A stretch of DNA of 20,000 nt from an uncultured virus (IMG/VR IMGVR_UViG_3300048502_000057) (lineage: Duplodnaviria; Heunggongvirae; Uroviricota; Caudoviricetes). Position 1 is the first letter of the stretch; the number at the start of each line of letters is the position of its first letter. A program made the translations under genes and the position numbers. The stretch lies in the IMG/VR virus record IMGVR_UViG_3300048502_000057. One strand, given 5' to 3'. The notes under the pieces were generated by a model that worked only from the letters and a program-made list of their open reading frames with translations, searched no databases and was not told where the DNA came from. Shown here in pieces: positions 8,776-17,028 of the stretch.

Positions 8776-8940
8776 TCACCCGATATCGAACAGGCCGAAT
8801 GCCCATCCGGCAACGGCACCTGCGGCAATGACTTCGCCGGCAACGATAAATGCGGCAAATCCGACTGATGCGAGGTAAAAGGTAACGATCGCAACCCGGT
8901 CGATAAGCGGCGGGGTAAGCGGGTTTCGTGTTCGGTTCAT
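8776..8940 (-). CDS. Small membrane protein (54 aa), first gene of the leftward operon
   Basis: Hand translation MNRTRNPLTPPLIDRVAIVTFYLASVGFAAFIVAGEVIAAGAVAGWAFGLFDIG; GGAAGGG RBS. Confidence 0.6.
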   Translation of the reverse strand: MNRTRNPLTPPLIDRVAIVTFYLASVGFAAFIVAGEVIAAGAVAGWAFGLFDIG

Positions 8941-8978
8941 TTCGGCGGCCCTTCCATATTTGGTTCCGACGCAAGATC

Positions 8979-9007
8979 ACCCTAGGGGATAATTCTCCCC
9001 ATTGCCA
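8979..9007 (-). promoter_or_regulatory. Leftward promoter with operator filling the spacer
   Basis: Minus strand TGGCAA-TGGGGAGAATTATCCCC(17)-TAGGGT; spacer identical to the 10664-10680 copy. Confidence 0.7.
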
Positions 9008-9036
9008 GCACAAAATGATGCGGGGACAAAAATATC

Positions 9037-9065
9037 TTGAGGGGGAGGCCGGGGCCTGATATTGG
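9037..9065 (+). promoter_or_regulatory. Candidate rightward promoter, possibly giving a leaderless mRNA
   Basis: TTGAGG-N17-TATTGG ending 7 nt before ATG 9073. Confidence 0.35.
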
Positions 9066-9072
9066 GTAGGGA

Positions 9073-9336
9073 ATGTTTGAACAGCTTATAATCGATAATT
9101 TGCTAGCTATTGCATCAGCCTATTGCCAGGGAACCGGCAGGACGATCAATGCCGTCAGTAAGGATTTCTACGGCCGGTCCGACTTTTTCGACAAGCTCAA
9201 GGCTCGGGAAGCCACGATTACCATCGATCGGCTAGGGCAAATGATCGAACGATTTCGGGCAGAATGGCCGACAGGCAAGGTTTCATGGCCCAATACGCGG
9301 CCGGTATTTATGACAATCGTTCCGTCTGAAACCTAA
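9073..9336 (+). CDS. Cro-like HTH transcriptional regulator
   Basis: 87 aa; AYCQGTGRTINAVSKDFYGRSDFFDKLK...TI...WP pattern of alphaproteobacterial phage Cro-like proteins; first gene of the divergent operon. Confidence 0.7.
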   Translation: MFEQLIIDNLLAIASAYCQGTGRTINAVSKDFYGRSDFFDKLKAREATITIDRLGQMIERFRAEWPTGKVSWPNTRPVFMTIVPSET

Positions 9337-10710: not shown

Positions 10711-12084
10711 ATGACCGACTATCAGAAATTTCTAGCAAAAAAGAAACTTCGCGCTCAGGAACGCGGATTAAAGCATATGCCGGTGCTTTCCAATCATCTT
10801 TTTCCATTTCAGAAAACATGCGTCGAATTTGCCTTGCGTGCCGGATCGGCCGGTAACTTTCTGTCGACGGGGCTCGGCAAGACAGCATGTGAGCTCGAAT
10901 GGGCCGCTCATGCCGCCGACGCCACGAACGGTCGCGCGCTCATATTGGCCCCGCTGTCGGTTGGCTGGCAGATTGCGCAAGAGGCCGAGCGCTGGGGATA
11001 TGACGCCAAAGTCATCCGCGATATGTCGGAGATCGATTGGGGCATTAATATTTGCAATTACGATCGGCTGGACAAGTTGGAACCGGCAGCGTTCGGCGCC
11101 GTGGCACTTGATGAAGCGAGCATACTAAAATCGTTCGGGGGGAAAACGTCTCAGGCGCTAATCCAGGCGTTCGCGAGTCACCGTTTTCGGCTCTCTGCCA
11201 CGGCGACGCCGGCCCCGAACGATCACATGGAATTGGGGCAGCAATCCGATTTCCTCGGGATCATGCCATCGTCAGAAATGCTCATGCGGTGGTTCATCAA
11301 CGATACGTCCGTTGCCTCGCAGGAATGGCGCCTCAAGAAGCATGCCGTCAATGACTTCTGGGATTGGTGCGCTTCGTGGTCGCGCATGGCGGAAATGCCA
11401 TCCGATCTTGGCGATAGCGACGAAGGTTTCGTTCTGCCGGCAATGAAGATCATTCGGCATCGGGCAGAGGCATCGCCAATCAAGGGCGCGGACCTATTCG
11501 GCATGGTCGATATGTCGGCAACGCAGATGCATGAGGTCAAACGGACCACGGCCGGCAATCGGTCGAAGTCGGTTGCCGATCTCGTCAACGCATCCACATC
11601 GGAGCCGTGGGTTATCTGGTGTGATACCGATTATGAGGCGGACGCGATCAAGGAACGTATCTGCCCTACGCAAAGGAAATCCGCGGTTCGCACACGCCGG
11701 AGTGAGAGAGGGAATACTGCGAGCTTTCGCTGATGGCATCTGTGCGCGTGCTCGTAACTAAACCCTCAATTGACGGGTTCGGGCTCAACTGGCAGCACTG
11801 CGCGCGTACTGCGTTCGTCGGCCGCACATTCTCGTATGAAGGCATGGTATCAGGCCGTGCGCCGGTTCTGGCGGTTCGGTCAAAAGCGCGAAGTCGAAGT
11901 CCATCTGATCGTGGCAGAAGGCGAAGACGCGATTGCGCGCGTGATTGACCGCAAGGCAGACGACCATATCATCATGAAAAATGCGATGCGCGCCGCGATG
12001 GCGCGAGCCAACGACAAGTCAGTAAAACGACAGACCGCATATGCCCCGAAACACAAAGCAAAGGTGCCTGAATGGCTAAAGTAA
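10711..12084 (+). pseudogene. SNF2/SF2 helicase-like ATPase with about 4 frameshifts in 11655-11845
   Basis: LSTGLGKT, LDEAS, ATATPAPND; C-terminal motifs TKPSI.GFGLNWQH and YQAVRRFWRFGQ lie in other frames. Confidence 0.85.
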
Positions 12085-12605
12085 TCAAGTGCATTGAGGC
12101 TACTCATGGTGAAAATTTCTCGACATATTGCGGGGACAGTTGCCAGATCGTGCCTCAGCTCGCATCGGAGACGGTAGGATTTTCCCTGTATTCTCCACCG
12201 TTTACGAACATTTTTATTCGTATACAGCGACAGCGAAGCTGACATGGGGAACTGCACAACGGATGAAGAGTTCAATCAGCACTATGCATATCTCGTTCGT
12301 GATCTTCTGCGAGTCACTAAGCCCGGTCGTTTGACAGCAGTTCATTGCTCTGACTTGCCGTCGTCGAAGTGGAAAGACGGCGTGATCGGGCTCAAGGACT
12401 TCCCCGGCGATATCGTCCGCATCCATCAGTCCGAGGGTTGGATTTTTCATTCGCGAACGATCGTCTGGCGCGATCCCGTTGTCGAGATGACCCGCACCAA
12501 GGCTCTCGGGCTGCTCTACAAGCAACTCAAGAAGGACAGCACCAAGAGCCGCATGGGCATTTGCGATCAAGTTCTTGTATTTCGTAAAATGAGGCCGCCG
12601 AGTGA
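12072..12605 (+). pseudogene. N4-C/N6-A DNA methyltransferase, frameshifted near 12215 and missing its C-terminal half
   Basis: ATG 12072 MAKVIK...YCGDSC...YSPPF, then in another frame YSDSEADMGN...RVTKPGR...VLVFRK; no SAM-binding motif follows; a residual EAAE* ends at 12605. Confidence 0.8.
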
Positions 12606-12703: not shown

Positions 12704-12936
12704 CCGATCGGAAAGCCAAGCAGATGCTCCGGGCTGAGCTCTACGGCGATCAGCACGGTTGCTGCTATTACTGCGAGGAACCGATGACGCTGCTTTCTCG
12801 GTATCCGATGGGTACTTCCCTAGCCTCCAACGTTTGCACGCTTGGGCGGGCTCCGGAAGGTCACCACGTGGCCGTCTGCAACGGGTGCAACGTCGGCAAG
12901 AATGAGCGAGATAAGATGAGGCGGCGGGCTGGATAG
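12700..12936 (+). CDS. Degenerate HNH-like zinc-binding protein
   Basis: QHGCCYYCEEPM ... VAVCNGCNVGK; the usual D/E-H motif is absent. Confidence 0.65.
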   Translation: MTDRKAKQMLRAELYGDQHGCCYYCEEPMTLLSRYPMGTSLASNVCTLGRAPEGHHVAVCNGCNVGKNERDKMRRRAG

Positions 12937-12939
12937 CAC

Positions 12940-12969
12940 TTGCCAGCGTCCGGGAATATGGCTTACAAA
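12940..12969 (+). promoter_or_regulatory. Candidate promoter for the structured sense leader RNA
   Basis: TTGCCA-N18-TACAAA right after the HNH stop. Confidence 0.4.
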
Positions 12970-13005
12970 AGCAAACGGCCCGCTAGAAGCTGATCCAGCG
13001 GGCCG
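12967..13005 (-). terminator. Intrinsic terminator of the antisense RNA
   Basis: Minus strand CGGCCCGCTGGA-TCAGCT-TCTAGCGGGCCG-TTTGCTTTT; the G-U pair favours minus-strand folding. Confidence 0.75.
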
Positions 13006-13042
13006 AAACTAAAAGTCCGATATGCTTGGCGGCGGTCGGACA
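12967..13042 (-). ncRNA. Putative CopA/Inc-like antisense RNA (~75 nt)
   Basis: Own sigma70-like promoter upstream, hairpin exposing CGCCAA, ends in a GC-rich stem plus U-tract. Confidence 0.7.
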
Positions 13043-13048
13043 GGAAAA

Positions 13049-13077
13049 GACTTAGGGTCTTTATGCCCTTTTGTCAA
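13049..13077 (-). promoter_or_regulatory. Antisense promoter
   Basis: Minus strand TTGACA-AAAGGGCATAAAGACCC(17)-TAAGTC. Confidence 0.75.
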
Positions 13078-13425
13078 ATATCCTGACAAATAATCCCGCC
13101 AAGCGTCATCGGTTCCATACCTGCCATCTTGGCCGGGGCGCATTCGTGCGTCGGGGCTCGCCATGTCGGGGGCAGGGACGCTGTGTGAGGGTTCTTGCGC
13201 TTGTTCGCTTGCCCTGGCCGGGTGCGTCGCATGGGATATGCCGGTACAGCTGGCGGCGCAGTGGCCGCAAGTTGCATCTTCTAACTTCCGGAGGCGTAAT
13301 TTTATTGCGCCGAAGGGGGTAAGGGGGTGTGACTGTGGGTAGGAAGAAAGAAGGTCTATCGGTTAAGGAAGAATAGTAAGAAAGTATAAGAATATTACAC
13401 TGTTAGCTGTTGAAAGAGGGGAACC

Positions 13426-15900
13426 ATGATCTCGGAACTTCGACCCTACCAAGTTGAAGCGTTGGCCAACATCCGCAACAGCATTCGGGGAGGGGTCAAG
13501 CGGCTGGTTGTGCAGGCTGCGACCGGGGCCGGAAAGTGCCTTGGCATCGGCACGCCAGTTTTAAAATTTGATGGCCAGATTGTTCCAGTCGAAAGCATTG
13601 TTGCTGGCGACCGACTGATGGGGCCAGACAGCAAGCCTCGGAATGTGGTCGGCGTTTGCCGCGACCGTGGCCCGCTGTTTCGGATTGTTCCGACCAAGGG
13701 CGACCAATGGGTTTGCAATGACGTTCATGTTTTGACGTTGGTTGAAAGTCAAAGCGGTCAGATTGTGGACGTTCCCTTGGACGAATATCTTCGCACAAAC
13801 AAAACATTCAAACATGTTCATAAATTATTTTCACCGGAATGTGGGATAGATTTTTCGCCGTCTAACGATCCGGACGTGCCGGGTTATTTTCTTGGTTTAT
13901 GGATTGGAGATGGCACGAAGTCGCTTCGGGGTGTTTCAATATCCAAACCTGACATCGAGGTCCGAGATGAATGTGAGAGGGTTGCGGTCGCCAATAGAGG
14001 AACAATTTCTACTAGTTCTTCTGGCAGTTGCCCAACCTATCATGTCGTCACGCCGCGTGGAAAACCTAATCGGTTATTGGAAAAAATGCGGGCGCTTATG
14101 GGGCGCGGCGACATACCGTTATCGGTGTTAACCGCATCTCGCCAATATCGCGCCTCGGTTTTGGCTGGGGTAATTGATACCGATGGGTACGTTGCAAAAG
14201 GATGTTGTGAAGTTGCTCAGAAGTCCGAGATGCTGGCTAGCGGAATAACGTTTCTTGCTAGGTCATTGGGAATGAAAGTTACATGCGCTGACAAAATAGT
14301 TAATGGAGCAGTTTACAAGCGCATGATGATTAGTGGAGATTTTTCAAATATCCCGACTAGAATAGCTCGCAAAACTGCCGGTACTCGCAAACAAAAAAAA
14401 TGTGCCACTAGAACTGGATTTGCTGTTGAGCCAATTGGTGTCGGAGAATATGCCGGGTTTGAACTAGATGGAGACGGTCGATTTTTGCTTGGAGATTTCA
14501 CCGTTACGCATAACACGAAAATCTCAGCGGCTATAGTCGAGGGGTGCCGCAGCAAAAACAATCGGGTGGCCTTTGTATGCCCAGCAATCAGCCTTATCGA
14601 TCAGACGGTCGAAAGTTTCTACGCGGAGGGTATTCGCGACATCGGGGTTATCCAAGCGAATCACGAAATGACCGATTGGAGCCGTCCGGTCCAAGTTTGC
14701 TCAATCCAGACCATTCAAGCGAGGGGCGCATTTCCACAAGCGCAAACTGTGCTATTTGATGAATGCCACAAGATCCACAAATCTATGATTGCATGGTTGC
14801 AGCATCCGGACTGGCGCAACGTCCCGATGATTGGTCTCTCAGCTACGCCATGGACGAAAGGGCTCGGCAAATATTTTGACAGCCTGCTAGTCGCTGCGAC
14901 GACTTCGGAATTAATCGAGCAGGGATATTTGTCACCGTTCAAGGTATTTGCTTCAGGTCATCCAGATTTGTCCAACGTGAAGGTTGTTGCCGGCGATTAT
15001 CATGAGGGGCAGTTGAGCATGGCGATGCAAAGCGGGGAGCTTACTGCCGACATCATCAAAACATGGCGCGAGAAATGGGGGAAAGGAAAAACCTTGTGCT
15101 TTGGGGTAGACAAGGCGCATGCCAAATCAATCCAAGAGCGGTTCGAATATGCTGGTATCCGTTGCGGATATCAGGATTCTGAAACGACTGCCGACGAACG
15201 CCGCGAGATCAAGCGCAAATTTCACAACGGAGAGTACGCGGTAGTTTCGAATATCCAAACGCTAACAACGGGTGTGGACTGGGATGTTAGGTGTTTGATC
15301 CTTGCGCGCCCAACGCGCTCGGAAATGCTTTACACGCAAATCATTGGACGTGCATTGCGGACGGCGCCTGGAAAGGACTGCGCCTTGATTTTAGATCATT
15401 CAGACAGTTCGACAAAACTCGGTCTAGTTACTGACATTCATCATGATCATCTTAATGGCGGAAAGGTTCAGCAAAAGGAAAAGACAAAAGAAAAATTGCC
15501 GAAGGAATGTCCGCAGTGCCACATGATTAAGAAGGCCAAGAAATGCCCTAACTGCGGCTACGAGGTGGTGATTACGTCCGACATCATGGAGCAGGATGGC
15601 GAACTCGTTGAATTTTCAGGCGGGAAAAAGGGAAAAGGGAAAGCGCGCGAGATGACATCGGACGAGAAGCGCACCTTTCTTGCCGAACTGAAATGCTATT
15701 GTTTGCAGCATGGCTACAAGTCTGGCTGGGCCGCGAATAAATACAAAGATCGATTGAAAGTATGGCCGCATCATTCGATAGCAGATGTGCCGCCCGCAAA
15801 GATGGTTTCTCCCACTACGGCGCTTTGGATCAGAGCGAGAGCTATTGCATTTGCAAAAACAAAAAAAATTGGAGTTGAAGCGGGGACTCCTAGAGCATGA
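13426..15900 (+). CDS. DEAD/DEAH-box SF2 helicase (RadD/YejH-like) with C-terminal Zn finger, interrupted by an intein
   Basis: LRPYQ, AATGAGK|T, FDECH, GLSATP, LTTGVD, QIIGRALR, CPQC...CPNC; GAGGGG RBS. Confidence 0.93.
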   Translation: MISELRPYQVEALANIRNSIRGGVKRLVVQAATGAGKCLGIGTPVLKFDGQIVPVESIVAGDRLMGPDSKPRNVVGVCRDRGPLFRIVPTKGDQWVCNDVHVLTLVESQSGQIVDVPLDEYLRTNKTFKHVHKLFSPECGIDFSPSNDPDVPGYFLGLWIGDGTKSLRGVSISKPDIEVRDECERVAVANRGTISTSSSGSCPTYHVVTPRGKPNRLLEKMRALMGRGDIPLSVLTASRQYRASVLAGVIDTDGYVAKGCCEVAQKSEMLASGITFLARSLGMKVTCADKIVNGAVYKRMMISGDFSNIPTRIARKTAGTRKQKKCATRTGFAVEPIGVGEYAGFELDGDGRFLLGDFTVTHNTKISAAIVEGCRSKNNRVAFVCPAISLIDQTVESFYAEGIRDIGVIQANHEMTDWSRPVQVCSIQTIQARGAFPQAQTVLFDECHKIHKSMIAWLQHPDWRNVPMIGLSATPWTKGLGKYFDSLLVAATTSELIEQGYLSPFKVFASGHPDLSNVKVVAGDYHEGQLSMAMQSGELTADIIKTWREKWGKGKTLCFGVDKAHAKSIQERFEYAGIRCGYQDSETTADERREIKRKFHNGEYAVVSNIQTLTTGVDWDVRCLILARPTRSEMLYTQIIGRALRTAPGKDCALILDHSDSSTKLGLVTDIHHDHLNGGKVQQKEKTKEKLPKECPQCHMIKKAKKCPNCGYEVVITSDIMEQDGELVEFSGGKKGKGKAREMTSDEKRTFLAELKCYCLQHGYKSGWAANKYKDRLKVWPHHSIADVPPAKMVSPTTALWIRARAIAFAKTKKIGVEAGTPRA
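13537..14514 (+). mobile_element. Intein (326 aa) with LAGLIDADG homing endonuclease
   Basis: Starts CLGIGTPV, ends GRFLLGDFTVTHN before T(+1); motifs FLGLWIGDG and LAGVIDTDG; splits Walker A GK|T. Confidence 0.95.
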
Positions 15901-16517: not shown

Positions 16518-16721
16518 GTGATGAACGAGGAAACGCTTATGCCTATGCCAAGCGCCTCGGCTTCGAGGATGAAACTGCGACAGATGATCCGCGAAGGAAA
16601 TGGCGATCCGGAATCGCCTCCGCACCGAACCGACAATCCAGACGTAATCCAGGCGATGCGCGGAGATCCGGCGACTATTTCGGTAGTGCGAGATGGGCAG
16701 AACGTGCCGAAGCGCCGCTAA
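16518..16721 (+). CDS. Hypothetical protein
   Basis: ORF in operon; start GTG 16518 or ATG 16521. Confidence 0.5.
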   Translation: MMNEETLMPMPSASASRMKLRQMIREGNGDPESPPHRTDNPDVIQAMRGDPATISVVRDGQNVPKRR

Positions 16722-16767: not shown

Positions 16768-17028
16768 ATGACAATCGAAGTTGTGTTCCTAGACTCAGGC
16801 CGTGAGCCGCAGTGCAAGCCGGACCCTAAATATCCGAACGGGTGAGATATTGAAATTGCAGGCAGCAACGCTCGTTGCTGTAACAACCTGCCGTATCCCG
16901 CACCTCGCTGCGGCATTTACGAGATCACATGCAATGATTGCGGGTTGAAGGTCGCGCTCACGGTTGCCGGGCGAATTGACGATCCTCGCACAATCACAAT
17001 CCCATGCAAGGTAAAGCTAGCGTCATGA
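16768..17028 (+). CDS. Cys-rich small protein with in-frame TGA at 16843-16845 (recoded, pseudogene or error)
   Basis: GGAGA RBS; frame stays open for 60 codons after the TGA and ends in an ATGA overlap with the ParB-N gene. Confidence 0.65.

What the first reader, a model, noticed from the sequence alone, without database searches (positions are those of the whole stretch)
12940..13112. Plasmid-style antisense RNA switch (TTGGCG hexaloop) in a phage replication region
Seen in the sequence: (1) a sense hairpin at 13015-13041 whose loop is exactly TTGGCG (13026-13031); (2) a minus-strand TTGACA-N17-TAAGTC promoter starting transcription at about 13042; (3) a minus-strand intrinsic terminator at 12967-13005, which together define a ~75-nt countertranscript presenting CGCCAA; (4) a downstream segment CCGCCAAGCGTCATCGG (13096-13112) that can pair with 13017-13032 over ~16 bp (one G-U, one bulge) as a competing helix. 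Established knowledge: the UUGGCG U-turn loop is the recognition loop of R1 CopT/CopA and ColIb-P9 Inc control, and in ColIb-P9 it also forms an activating pseudoknot with a downstream complement. Inference: this phage uses an analogous RNA switch for copy-number or helicase control, suggesting a possible phage-plasmid lifestyle.
Basis: partly seen in the sequence, partly recalled or inferred. Interest (0 to 1): 0.85.

Follow-up and report, generated by a model that had tools for sequence, protein, structure and literature searches.

The report
Antisense switch heading phage replication module
This soil-type phage carries a conserved, plasmid-style antisense RNA switch at the start of its replication genes; in many relatives it sits before a probable replication-initiator gene, but here a folded non-coding RNA takes that gene's place and may itself help start replication.

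Summary
Real, and larger than reported. Convergent promoters (sense 12940-69, antisense 13077-49) make a predicted ~77-nt antisense RNA covering the whole 5' end of a sense transcript. The same cassette was found in 27 phage loci (23 non-redundant). Its terminator covaries strongly (8 of 9 pairs), and target and downstream complement match better in cognate pairs (p~1e-3; 0.14 in the 11 rows not selected on the complement). The TTGGCG loop is not the defining feature (6 of 27). In 16 loci the complement arm precedes a gene and can fold over its Shine-Dalgarno/start codon, as in ColIb-P9. In 11, including the window, a structured ~230-330-nt non-coding RNA follows instead. The window's RNA shares a covarying fold with five relatives and ends in a G5-N3-G5 tract before an origin-like purine tract, recalling ColE1 RNA II. 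No transcript is shown. Some non-coding-type phages keep initiator-like genes elsewhere. Phage-plasmid lifestyle is unproven (no integrase, but no ParA). The scan earlier noted similar designs on other DNA, not this sequence family. Verdict: new variant of antisense replication control; RNA-primed origin ~35%.

The parts
12940..12969 (+). Predicted sense promoter TTGCCA-N18-TACAAA; start near 12975-12976
   Evidence: Same two boxes found in 24 of 27 members (16 of 17); not part of the patterns that collected them
12966..13005 (-). Intrinsic terminator of the antisense RNA; its U tail overlaps the sense -10 box
   Evidence: 23 aligned members: 95.6% of cells paired, 8 of 9 pairs with changes on both sides, 0 of 500 shuffles, slid controls 31-51%; T-A to C-G change in the near-identical strain L001/L002
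12966..13042 (-). Predicted ~77-nt two-hairpin antisense RNA, loop CGCCAA
   Evidence: z -6.2; 74-85 nt and z -2.0 to -6.1 in 27 of 27 members; no transcript seen
13015..13041 (+). Target hairpin; 5' arm CCGAT, loop TTGGCG
   Evidence: base of the stem kept in 24 aligned members without compensatory change, upper stem and loop variable
13049..13077 (-). Predicted antisense promoter TTGACA-N17-TAAGTC
   Evidence: -10 box at 17 nt in 16 of 17 members (the -35 box was in the collecting pattern, the -10 was not)
13095..13116 (+). Downstream complement (switch arm), ending ATCGGTTCC; pairs with the target, or with downstream sequence when the target is blocked
   Evidence: identical in L172, where it covers the SD and ATG of a DUF1376 gene
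13117..13345 (+). Structured non-coding RNA that stands where relatives have an initiator-like gene
   Evidence: z -4.6; common fold with L470, L475, L476, L177, L318: 12 of 37 pairs with changes on both sides; the ATG of the 59-aa ORF at 13163 is absent in L470; that ORF has no Pfam or PHROG family
13315..13327 (+). G5-TAA-G5 tract, 3' arm of a G.U-rich terminal hairpin; candidate R-loop / hybrid G-quadruplex seed
   Evidence: Split G tract in 5 of 15 non-coding loci and 0 of 18 gene-bearing loci, also L475, L476; function inferred
13328..13425 (+). Purine-rich tract, candidate origin / unwinding region, then helicase SD
   Evidence: Aligns by eye with the tracts that follow the initiator-like gene in L172, L173, L175 and the RNA in L092, L366 (mean column identity 49%); origin role inferred
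13426..15900 (+). DEAD/ResIII-type helicase with an intein (Hint + LAGLIDADG)
   Evidence: Pfam, PHROG 16; intein absent in L004

Best explanation
An antisense-RNA switch that limits initiation of phage DNA replication. A sense transcript starts near 12976; a ~77-nt countertranscript from the convergent promoter is complementary to its first ~67 nt. Without antisense RNA, the target loop and 5' arm capture the downstream arm (13096-13112): ON. With antisense RNA bound, the arm is released and pairs downstream: OFF. In gene-bearing relatives the released arm covers the SD and start codon of an initiator-like gene. In the window there is no such gene: the switch instead decides the folding or read-through of a ~230-nt structured RNA that runs through a G5-N3-G5 tract into an origin-like tract, most simply as a ColE1-like primer or origin-opening RNA. 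Shown here: sequence, conservation, covariation, gene context. Inferred: both transcripts, the ON/OFF direction, the initiator role of the genes, the origin. My odds: antisense switch on replication ~0.8; that its output in the window is an origin-acting RNA ~0.45 given that.
For: Cassette in 27 loci, always before replication-type genes or a structured gap. Sense promoter 24 of 27, antisense RNA 74-85 nt in 27 of 27. Terminator covariation. A pattern using only the 5' arm and antisense promoter gave 49 distinct matches: 17 were cassettes, 6 of them new and each with a downstream (A/C)CGGT arm; 0 of the other 32 had the sense promoter or TCGGTTCC. Cognate target/complement duplexes beat swapped ones: p 8e-4 (23 non-redundant), 1.4e-3 on variable letters, 3.7e-3 without the window. 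Loop/complement swaps: TTGGGA/TCCCAA in L382; TTGCCGG/CCGGCAA in L106 against TGGCCGG/CCGGCCA in L220. With the target blocked, the arm pairs downstream with P>=0.72 in 14 of 15 gene-bearing loci, mean 0.36 in 9 non-coding ones; the long-range helix has P>0.5 in 9 of 9 non-coding loci. L172 (73% helicase identity) has the same loop and complement, then a DUF1376 gene, then a similar purine tract. Three unrelated non-coding types show compensatory changes: 12 of 37, 15 of 115, 8 of 87 pairs. Near-identical strains differ mainly inside the antisense region, as expected of incompatibility-like diversification. No initiator match in the window or its six strain contigs with 27 queries.
Against: No transcript evidence. 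Cognate advantage not significant in the 11 rows not selected on the complement (p 0.14), and rows are related. The long-range helix wins in only 8 of 15 gene-bearing loci; mean SD-AUG accessibility fell on binding in 6 of 13, rose in 5, unchanged in 2. The rise in downstream pairing when a competitor is blocked is expected by construction. The conserved CCGAT/ATCGG pairs never covary. In the full-length window RNA the main downstream helices and the G-tract hairpin are the same in both states. Complete genome G001 (L092, non-coding type) has a DUF1376 gene ~2 kb downstream of the helicase, and G004, L327, L387 have ORFs like initiator C-terminal domains. 10 of 15 non-coding loci lack the split G tract by the regex. 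Only 4 of 9 initiator-like proteins scanned hit DUF1376 and one weakly Phage_rep_org_N.
Confidence: 0.6

Rival explanations
1. The switch is real, but in the window the 230-nt RNA is only a long structured leader: antisense binding cuts expression of the helicase operon (Rho-dependent attenuation or mRNA decay), and initiation uses a protein encoded elsewhere.
For: Helicase follows on the same strand; G001 keeps a DUF1376 gene, and three other non-coding loci keep initiator-C-terminal-like ORFs; the window is only 20 kb of the genome.
Against: No plus-strand intrinsic terminator in 13040-13425; the helicase SD lies in a weakly folded purine tract; the RNA replaces a gene at exactly the initiator slot and keeps its fold across phages with different downstream genes.
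Confidence: 0.2
2. A lambda OOP-like antisense RNA that simply degrades the overlapping message; the downstream complement is an anti-SD arm (or its relic), and the long-range helix is incidental.
For: Same length (OOP is 77 nt, PMC3349717 passages) and position before replication genes; long-range helix loses in 7 of 15 gene-bearing loci; p 0.14 in the unselected rows.
Against: OOP overlaps the end of cII inside a long message (PMC3349717); here the RNA covers the 5' end of a transcript with its own promoter; loop and complement change together in L382, L106/L220, L138; the arm persists in non-coding loci that have no SD to cover.
Confidence: 0.1
3. The hairpins act as single-stranded DNA (origin or primosome signals), not RNA.
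For: No transcript seen; the tract lies where an origin is expected; Weinberg et al. note that replication-linked motifs may act as ssDNA (PMC5737381 passage).
Against: Two conserved convergent promoters and a U-tailed terminator with covariation define transcription units. This rival could still hold for 13117-13345 alone.
Confidence: 0.07
4. A P1 c4 / P4 CI-type immunity RNA, in which TTGGCG loops are also reported (recalled; earlier scan note e1-308239).
For: Shared hexamer.
Against: No Rfam match up to E 10 in 12850-13450 or up to E 1 in 12 related loci; a single target, antisense made from the opposite strand, no antirepressor gene downstream; loop not conserved (6 of 27).
Confidence: 0.03

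Closest known systems
ColIb-P9 / I-complex Inc RNA (RNAI)-SLI-pseudoknot control of repZ (PMC4705826, PMC10724649, passages)
   Same: Antisense RNA competes with a downstream complement for one target loop; the intramolecular pairing would free a masked SD/start codon; UUGGCG loop in 6 of 27 members
   Different: No leader peptide; partner is a ~16-bp helix that invades the stem rather than a short pseudoknot; transcript starts at the target region; in the window no gene follows; phage, not plasmid; no Rfam or plasmid match
ColE1 RNA I / RNA II primer origin (PMC5043065, PMC3167613, PMC6317783, passages)
   Same: Antisense RNA complementary to the 5' end of a non-coding transcript with its own promoter; G-rich stretch upstream of the presumed origin; no initiator gene in place
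   Different: Shorter (77 nt and ~370-450 nt against ~110 and ~550); no sequence match; a phage helicase follows; the same cassette also drives protein genes in relatives; R-loop and priming untested
RNA-based origins of extrachromosomal mycobacteriophage prophages (Wetzel et al. 2020, PMC7157519; abstract, passages, Discussion)
   Same: Related phages use either a Rep protein or a non-coding RNA at one replication slot
   Different: Those have parABS and are proven plasmid prophages; no antisense switch is described in the parts I read; here no ParA in 5 complete relatives and relatives point to Alphaproteobacteria
repABC ctRNA (PMC2783167, passages; S-element mechanism recalled)
   Same: Alphaproteobacterial small countertranscript just upstream of an initiator gene; variable sequence as incompatibility determinant
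   Different: No repA/repB/repC; own sense promoter; no Rfam match
Lambda OOP RNA (PMC3349717, passages)
   Same: 77-nt self-terminating antisense RNA directly upstream of phage replication genes
   Different: OOP overlaps the 3' end of cII; here it covers a transcript's 5' end, with an internal competing helix

Membership tests
ColIb-P9 / I-complex Inc control | UUGGCG target loop | tested here: inconclusive
   Present in the window, but in only 6 of 27 members
ColIb-P9 / I-complex Inc control | Downstream complement that competes with the antisense RNA | tested here: met
   (p 8e-4; 0.14 in the unselected subset)
ColIb-P9 / I-complex Inc control | Rep SD/start codon masked in a hairpin next to the complement | tested here: not met
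   No gene follows in the window; the arm pairs downstream at P>=0.72 in 14 of 15 gene-bearing relatives
ColIb-P9 / I-complex Inc control | Leader peptide (repY) coupled to rep | tested here: not met
   The 11-codon ORF at 12958 starts upstream of the predicted sense start, and its ATG is CTG in L002; no conserved leader ORF seen
ColIb-P9 / I-complex Inc control | Sequence or model homology | tested here: not met
   No Rfam hit; no plasmid blastn hit
ColE1-type RNA primer origin | [quoted passage not shown] | tested here: met
   Predicted from conserved promoters and terminator; transcripts not observed
ColE1-type RNA primer origin | G-rich stretch upstream of the origin | tested here: inconclusive
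   G5-TAA-G5 at 13315-27, in 5 of 15 non-coding and 0 of 18 gene-bearing loci; origin not mapped
ColE1-type RNA primer origin | No element-encoded initiator | tested here: inconclusive
   None in the window, its strain contigs, G002 or G005; present in G001; partial in G004, L327, L387; the window's whole genome is not held
ColE1-type RNA primer origin | Antisense binding changes the fold of the primer | tested here: inconclusive
   Switch arm changes partners, but the main downstream helices stay the same at equilibrium; cotranscriptional folding not modelled
ColE1-type RNA primer origin | Persistent R-loop, RNase H cleavage, Pol I extension | not testable with these tools
   Needs experiment
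repABC ctRNA | Located between repB and repC | tested here: not met
   No such genes among flanking ORFs; ParA 0 of 5 related genomes
Lambda OOP | Overlaps the 3' end of a cII-like gene | tested here: not met
   Upstream ORF ends at 12936, 30 nt before the terminator tail
P1 c4 / P4 CI immunity RNA | Rfam model match; two target sites before icd/ant or kil | tested here: not met
   single target, helicase downstream
Phage-plasmid | No integrase; partition system or proven extrachromosomal prophage | tested here: inconclusive
   Tyrosine integrase over cut-off 0 of 10 (one weak); ParA, resolvase, serine recombinase, S24 repressor each 0 of 5; HTH_3 2 of 5

The most novel reading that the evidence does not exclude
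A modular phage replicon in which one antisense switch controls either translation of an initiator protein or, in the window and at least ten other loci, a structured primer RNA that opens the origin as an R-loop (G5-N3-G5 hybrid G-quadruplex, as at ColE1 ori and mitochondrial CSB II). At least three unrelated RNA folds have been plugged in behind the same switch, so protein-to-RNA replacement of the initiator happened repeatedly, and the hypervariable antisense module defines incompatibility-like groups among phages that lack integrase and partition genes.
Probability: 0.35. Interest if true: 0.9.

Novelty: new variant of a known kind. Interest (0 to 1): 0.72.

Why it matters
Antisense copy control is textbook for plasmids; my ten literature searches found no such cassette on phage replication modules of this group. 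The family is compact, covarying and easy to test, and close relatives (window against L172) differ almost only in protein gene versus RNA behind the same switch. That makes an open question directly testable: how RNA-based phage origins work and how they interchange with protein initiators, left open for mycobacteriophages by Wetzel et al. 2020. It could also give orthogonal RNA regulators and replicons for Alphaproteobacteria.

Tried and rejected
Rfam: nothing in the window at gathering score, in 12850-13450 up to E 10, or in 12 related loci up to E 1. blastn: one chance hit in phages, none in plasmids. A pattern built on TTGGCG...TGTCAA...CCGCCAA gave 69 loci, of which only the window's own strain (2) had the cassette: the hexamer is a poor handle. 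The origin-tract pattern gave 15 loci, only own strain and L004's contig relevant; the RNA-helix pattern gave 13 loci, only own strain. Public RNA runs: 9 listed, 4 laid; only seven single-read-length contigs (151-155 nt, depth under 4), X1 and X2 identical, one covering 13000-13150; no strand or end information, so no evidence either way. Coding readings of the gap rejected: the 83-aa ORF has a stop in L090, the 59-aa ORF lacks its ATG in L470, neither has a family. Mean SD-AUG accessibility did not separate the two states. GC skew of five related genomes follows gene direction and did not place an origin. A sequence-only model found 0 of 151 and 1 weak, non-cassette match of 151 alphaproteobacterial genomes; only 18 candidates per genome were scored, so this is weak. 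My first helix for 13119-13185 was replaced by the six-sequence consensus. Pfam scan of related genomes covered 134 of the 250 ORFs called in G001, G004, G005. Literature: searches found no description of this family; the supplement of PMC5737381 could not be read and might hold a motif not in Rfam; subscription papers are outside the library.

Full report
Context. The window is part of a phage early region: ERF and YqaJ recombination genes on the minus strand, then RuvC-like, SNF2-like and methyltransferase-like genes, a gap from 12937 to 13425, and a DEAD/ResIII helicase with an intein. Helicase relatives in named genomes are mostly Alphaproteobacteria; the closest ones are uncultured contigs. 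No whole genome is held.

Observation. All four features are present as described. Taken alone in this window the evidence is modest: TTGGCG occurs 17 times on the + strand, the long-range duplex is matched by 35 of 1000 shuffles, and the promoter fails the strict scan. Rfam has nothing.

Relatives. Near-identical strain contigs differ from the window in a cluster at 12984-13036: one terminator pair changes T-A to C-G, and the target arm becomes a 17-base complement of the downstream arm with one G.U. A scan of the regions upstream of helicase relatives found the same layout in more distant phages. Two DNA patterns and a profile search brought the tight family to 27 loci, 23 non-redundant; looser members are L092, L102, L105, L106, L138, L178, L179, L220, L470, L471, L475, L476. 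Selection bias matters: the first pattern contained CCGAT, GTCAA and ATCGGTTCC; the second contained CCGATR and both antisense promoter boxes. Features outside the patterns still appeared: a sense promoter in 24 of 27, an antisense RNA of 74-85 nt with z -2.0 to -6.1 in 27 of 27, and a terminator stem with 95.6% paired cells, 8 of 9 pairs changed on both sides, 0 of 500 shuffles and 31-51% in slid controls (23 rows aligned). Of 49 distinct matches to the second pattern, 17 were cassettes, 6 new, each with a downstream arm; the other 32 had neither the sense promoter nor TCGGTTCC.

Geometry. The sense promoter (12940-69) starts a transcript at about the first base of the terminator hairpin, so the antisense RNA covers the first ~67 nt of that transcript. 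This is the geometry described for ColE1 RNA I and RNA II (PMC5043065, passages), not that of lambda OOP, which overlaps the end of cII (PMC3349717, passages).

The switch. The loop varies: TTGGCG in 6 of 27. The complement follows it in several cases: TTGGGA/TCCCAA in L382, TTGCCGG/CCGGCAA against TGGCCGG/CCGGCCA in L106 and L220, and an unrelated arm and complement in L138. Cognate duplexes beat swapped ones with p 5.5e-4 (27 rows), 8e-4 (23), 1.4e-3 (variable letters) and 3.7e-3 (without the window), but p 0.14 in the 11 rows not selected on the complement; rows are related, so these are not true probabilities. The invariant CCGAT/ATCGG pairs give no covariation. Some phages share a target hairpin but not the complement, or the reverse (window and L327; L366 and L418; L327 and L387), which suggests module swapping and tolerance of mismatches.

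Output in gene-bearing loci. In 16 of 27 loci a gene follows within ~25 nt, directly or via a short ORF. Four of nine such proteins scanned are DUF1376, one weakly Phage_rep_org_N, four have no family; calling them initiators is inference from position and my recall. With the target blocked, the ATCGGTTCC arm pairs downstream at P>=0.72 in 14 of 15, over differing SD/start sequences. This is the logic of ColIb-P9, where pairing of the target loop with a downstream complement opens a masked start and Inc RNA blocks it (PMC4705826, passages). Against: the long-range helix wins in only 8 of 15 free leaders, and average SD-AUG accessibility showed no consistent change in 13 rows.

Output in the window. 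Here, and in 10 other tight loci, no gene follows. L172 is the telling comparison: 73% helicase identity, same loop, identical complement, then a 115-aa DUF1376 gene and a purine tract like the window's 13328-13425. The window has in its place ~230 nt that fold at z -4.6 and share a fold with L470, L475, L476, L177 and L318 (12 of 37 pairs changed on both sides; structure predicted from the same six rows, no shuffle control). Two unrelated RNA types behind the same cassette also show compensatory changes (15 of 115 pairs in 3 rows, 8 of 87 in 2 rows). The window type ends in a split G tract 185-222 nt after the arm, seen in 5 of 15 non-coding and 0 of 18 gene-bearing loci. A G-rich stretch upstream of the origin is essential in ColE1, and a hybrid G-quadruplex stabilises the mitochondrial R-loop (PMC6317783, passages). 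I therefore favour a primer or origin-opening RNA, as inference. Against: equilibrium folding leaves the downstream helices unchanged between states; G001 has a DUF1376 gene 2 kb past the helicase; G004, L327 and L387 have ORFs like initiator C-terminal domains; none was found in the window, its strain contigs, G002 or G005 with 27 queries.

Lifestyle. Tyrosine integrase over cut-off in 0 of 10 related records, one weak hit; ParA, resolvase, serine recombinase and S24 repressor each 0 of 5 complete genomes, HTH_3 in 2 of 5. A plasmid prophage without partition, a carrier state and a lytic phage with exclusion all remain open. The ParB-like gene at 17004 resembles nuclease/methylase-linked families and is not taken as partition evidence.

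What is known. Wetzel et al. 2020 (PMC7157519; abstract, passages, Discussion) showed related mycobacteriophages using RepA or a non-coding RNA for prophage replication: the closest precedent for the swap, with parABS and a different host phylum. repABC ctRNA (PMC2783167, passages) is the closest alphaproteobacterial precedent. Ten searches found no description of this cassette; the supplement of PMC5737381 was not readable. Earlier notes of this scan describe similar designs on other DNA and none on this sequence family; they are leads, not support.

Verdict. A real, conserved, uncatalogued antisense switch on a phage replication module: it works like ColIb-P9 or repABC control in gene-bearing relatives and may work like ColE1 in the window, but is a member of none. 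New variant of a known kind; interest 0.72; RNA-primed origin 0.35, interest 0.9 if true.

Noticed in passing
window 13070-13090: Perfect 7-bp inverted repeat with a 7-nt spacer over the antisense -35 box; possible operator. Not kept in the aligned relatives.
   Followed up: partly
window 10711-12586 against L001 182-2567: The window's SNF2-like and methyltransferase-like genes are split across frames, and the near-identical contig L001 carries different, intact versions in this slot: module swap, decay or assembly error.
   Followed up: partly
window ~16532-16588, 17740, 17855: Strain contigs L001-L003 hold extra DNA at these points (about 0.14-0.23 kb and 1.4 kb, and more after 17855) that the window lacks.
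   Followed up: no
L475 1-294 (-), L105 1038-1385, L101 3001-3324: ProQ/FinO-family genes lie next to the replication region in three relatives; an RNA chaperone beside an antisense switch. A ProQ/FinO protein in plasmid copy control is listed in PMC8053102 (search listing only).
   Followed up: partly
window 13537-14514: Intein with LAGLIDADG domain in the helicase at the Walker A motif; absent in L004, and an intein-like insert also in L099/L100.
   Followed up: no
L094 3248-5371: Behind the cassette a Rep-like frame runs without a stop into the helicase: possible initiator-helicase fusion.
   Followed up: no
L120 2850-3300, L243 ~1500-1750, L104 3250-3700, L101 3330-3880: Further long, hairpin-rich gene-free stretches upstream of helicase or primase genes in more distant relatives; possibly other RNA types in the same slot.
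   Followed up: no
L012 and L036, at the pattern match: Unrelated viral contigs with a TTGGCG element and an extended downstream complement; a different possible switch.
   Followed up: no
L454 6252-8315 (-): Portal protein fused to an Acb1 anti-CBASS domain in related genome G005.
   Followed up: no
window 8894-9073: Divergence point of the early operons has a Cro-like 87-aa gene but no recognisable CI-type gene.
   Followed up: partly
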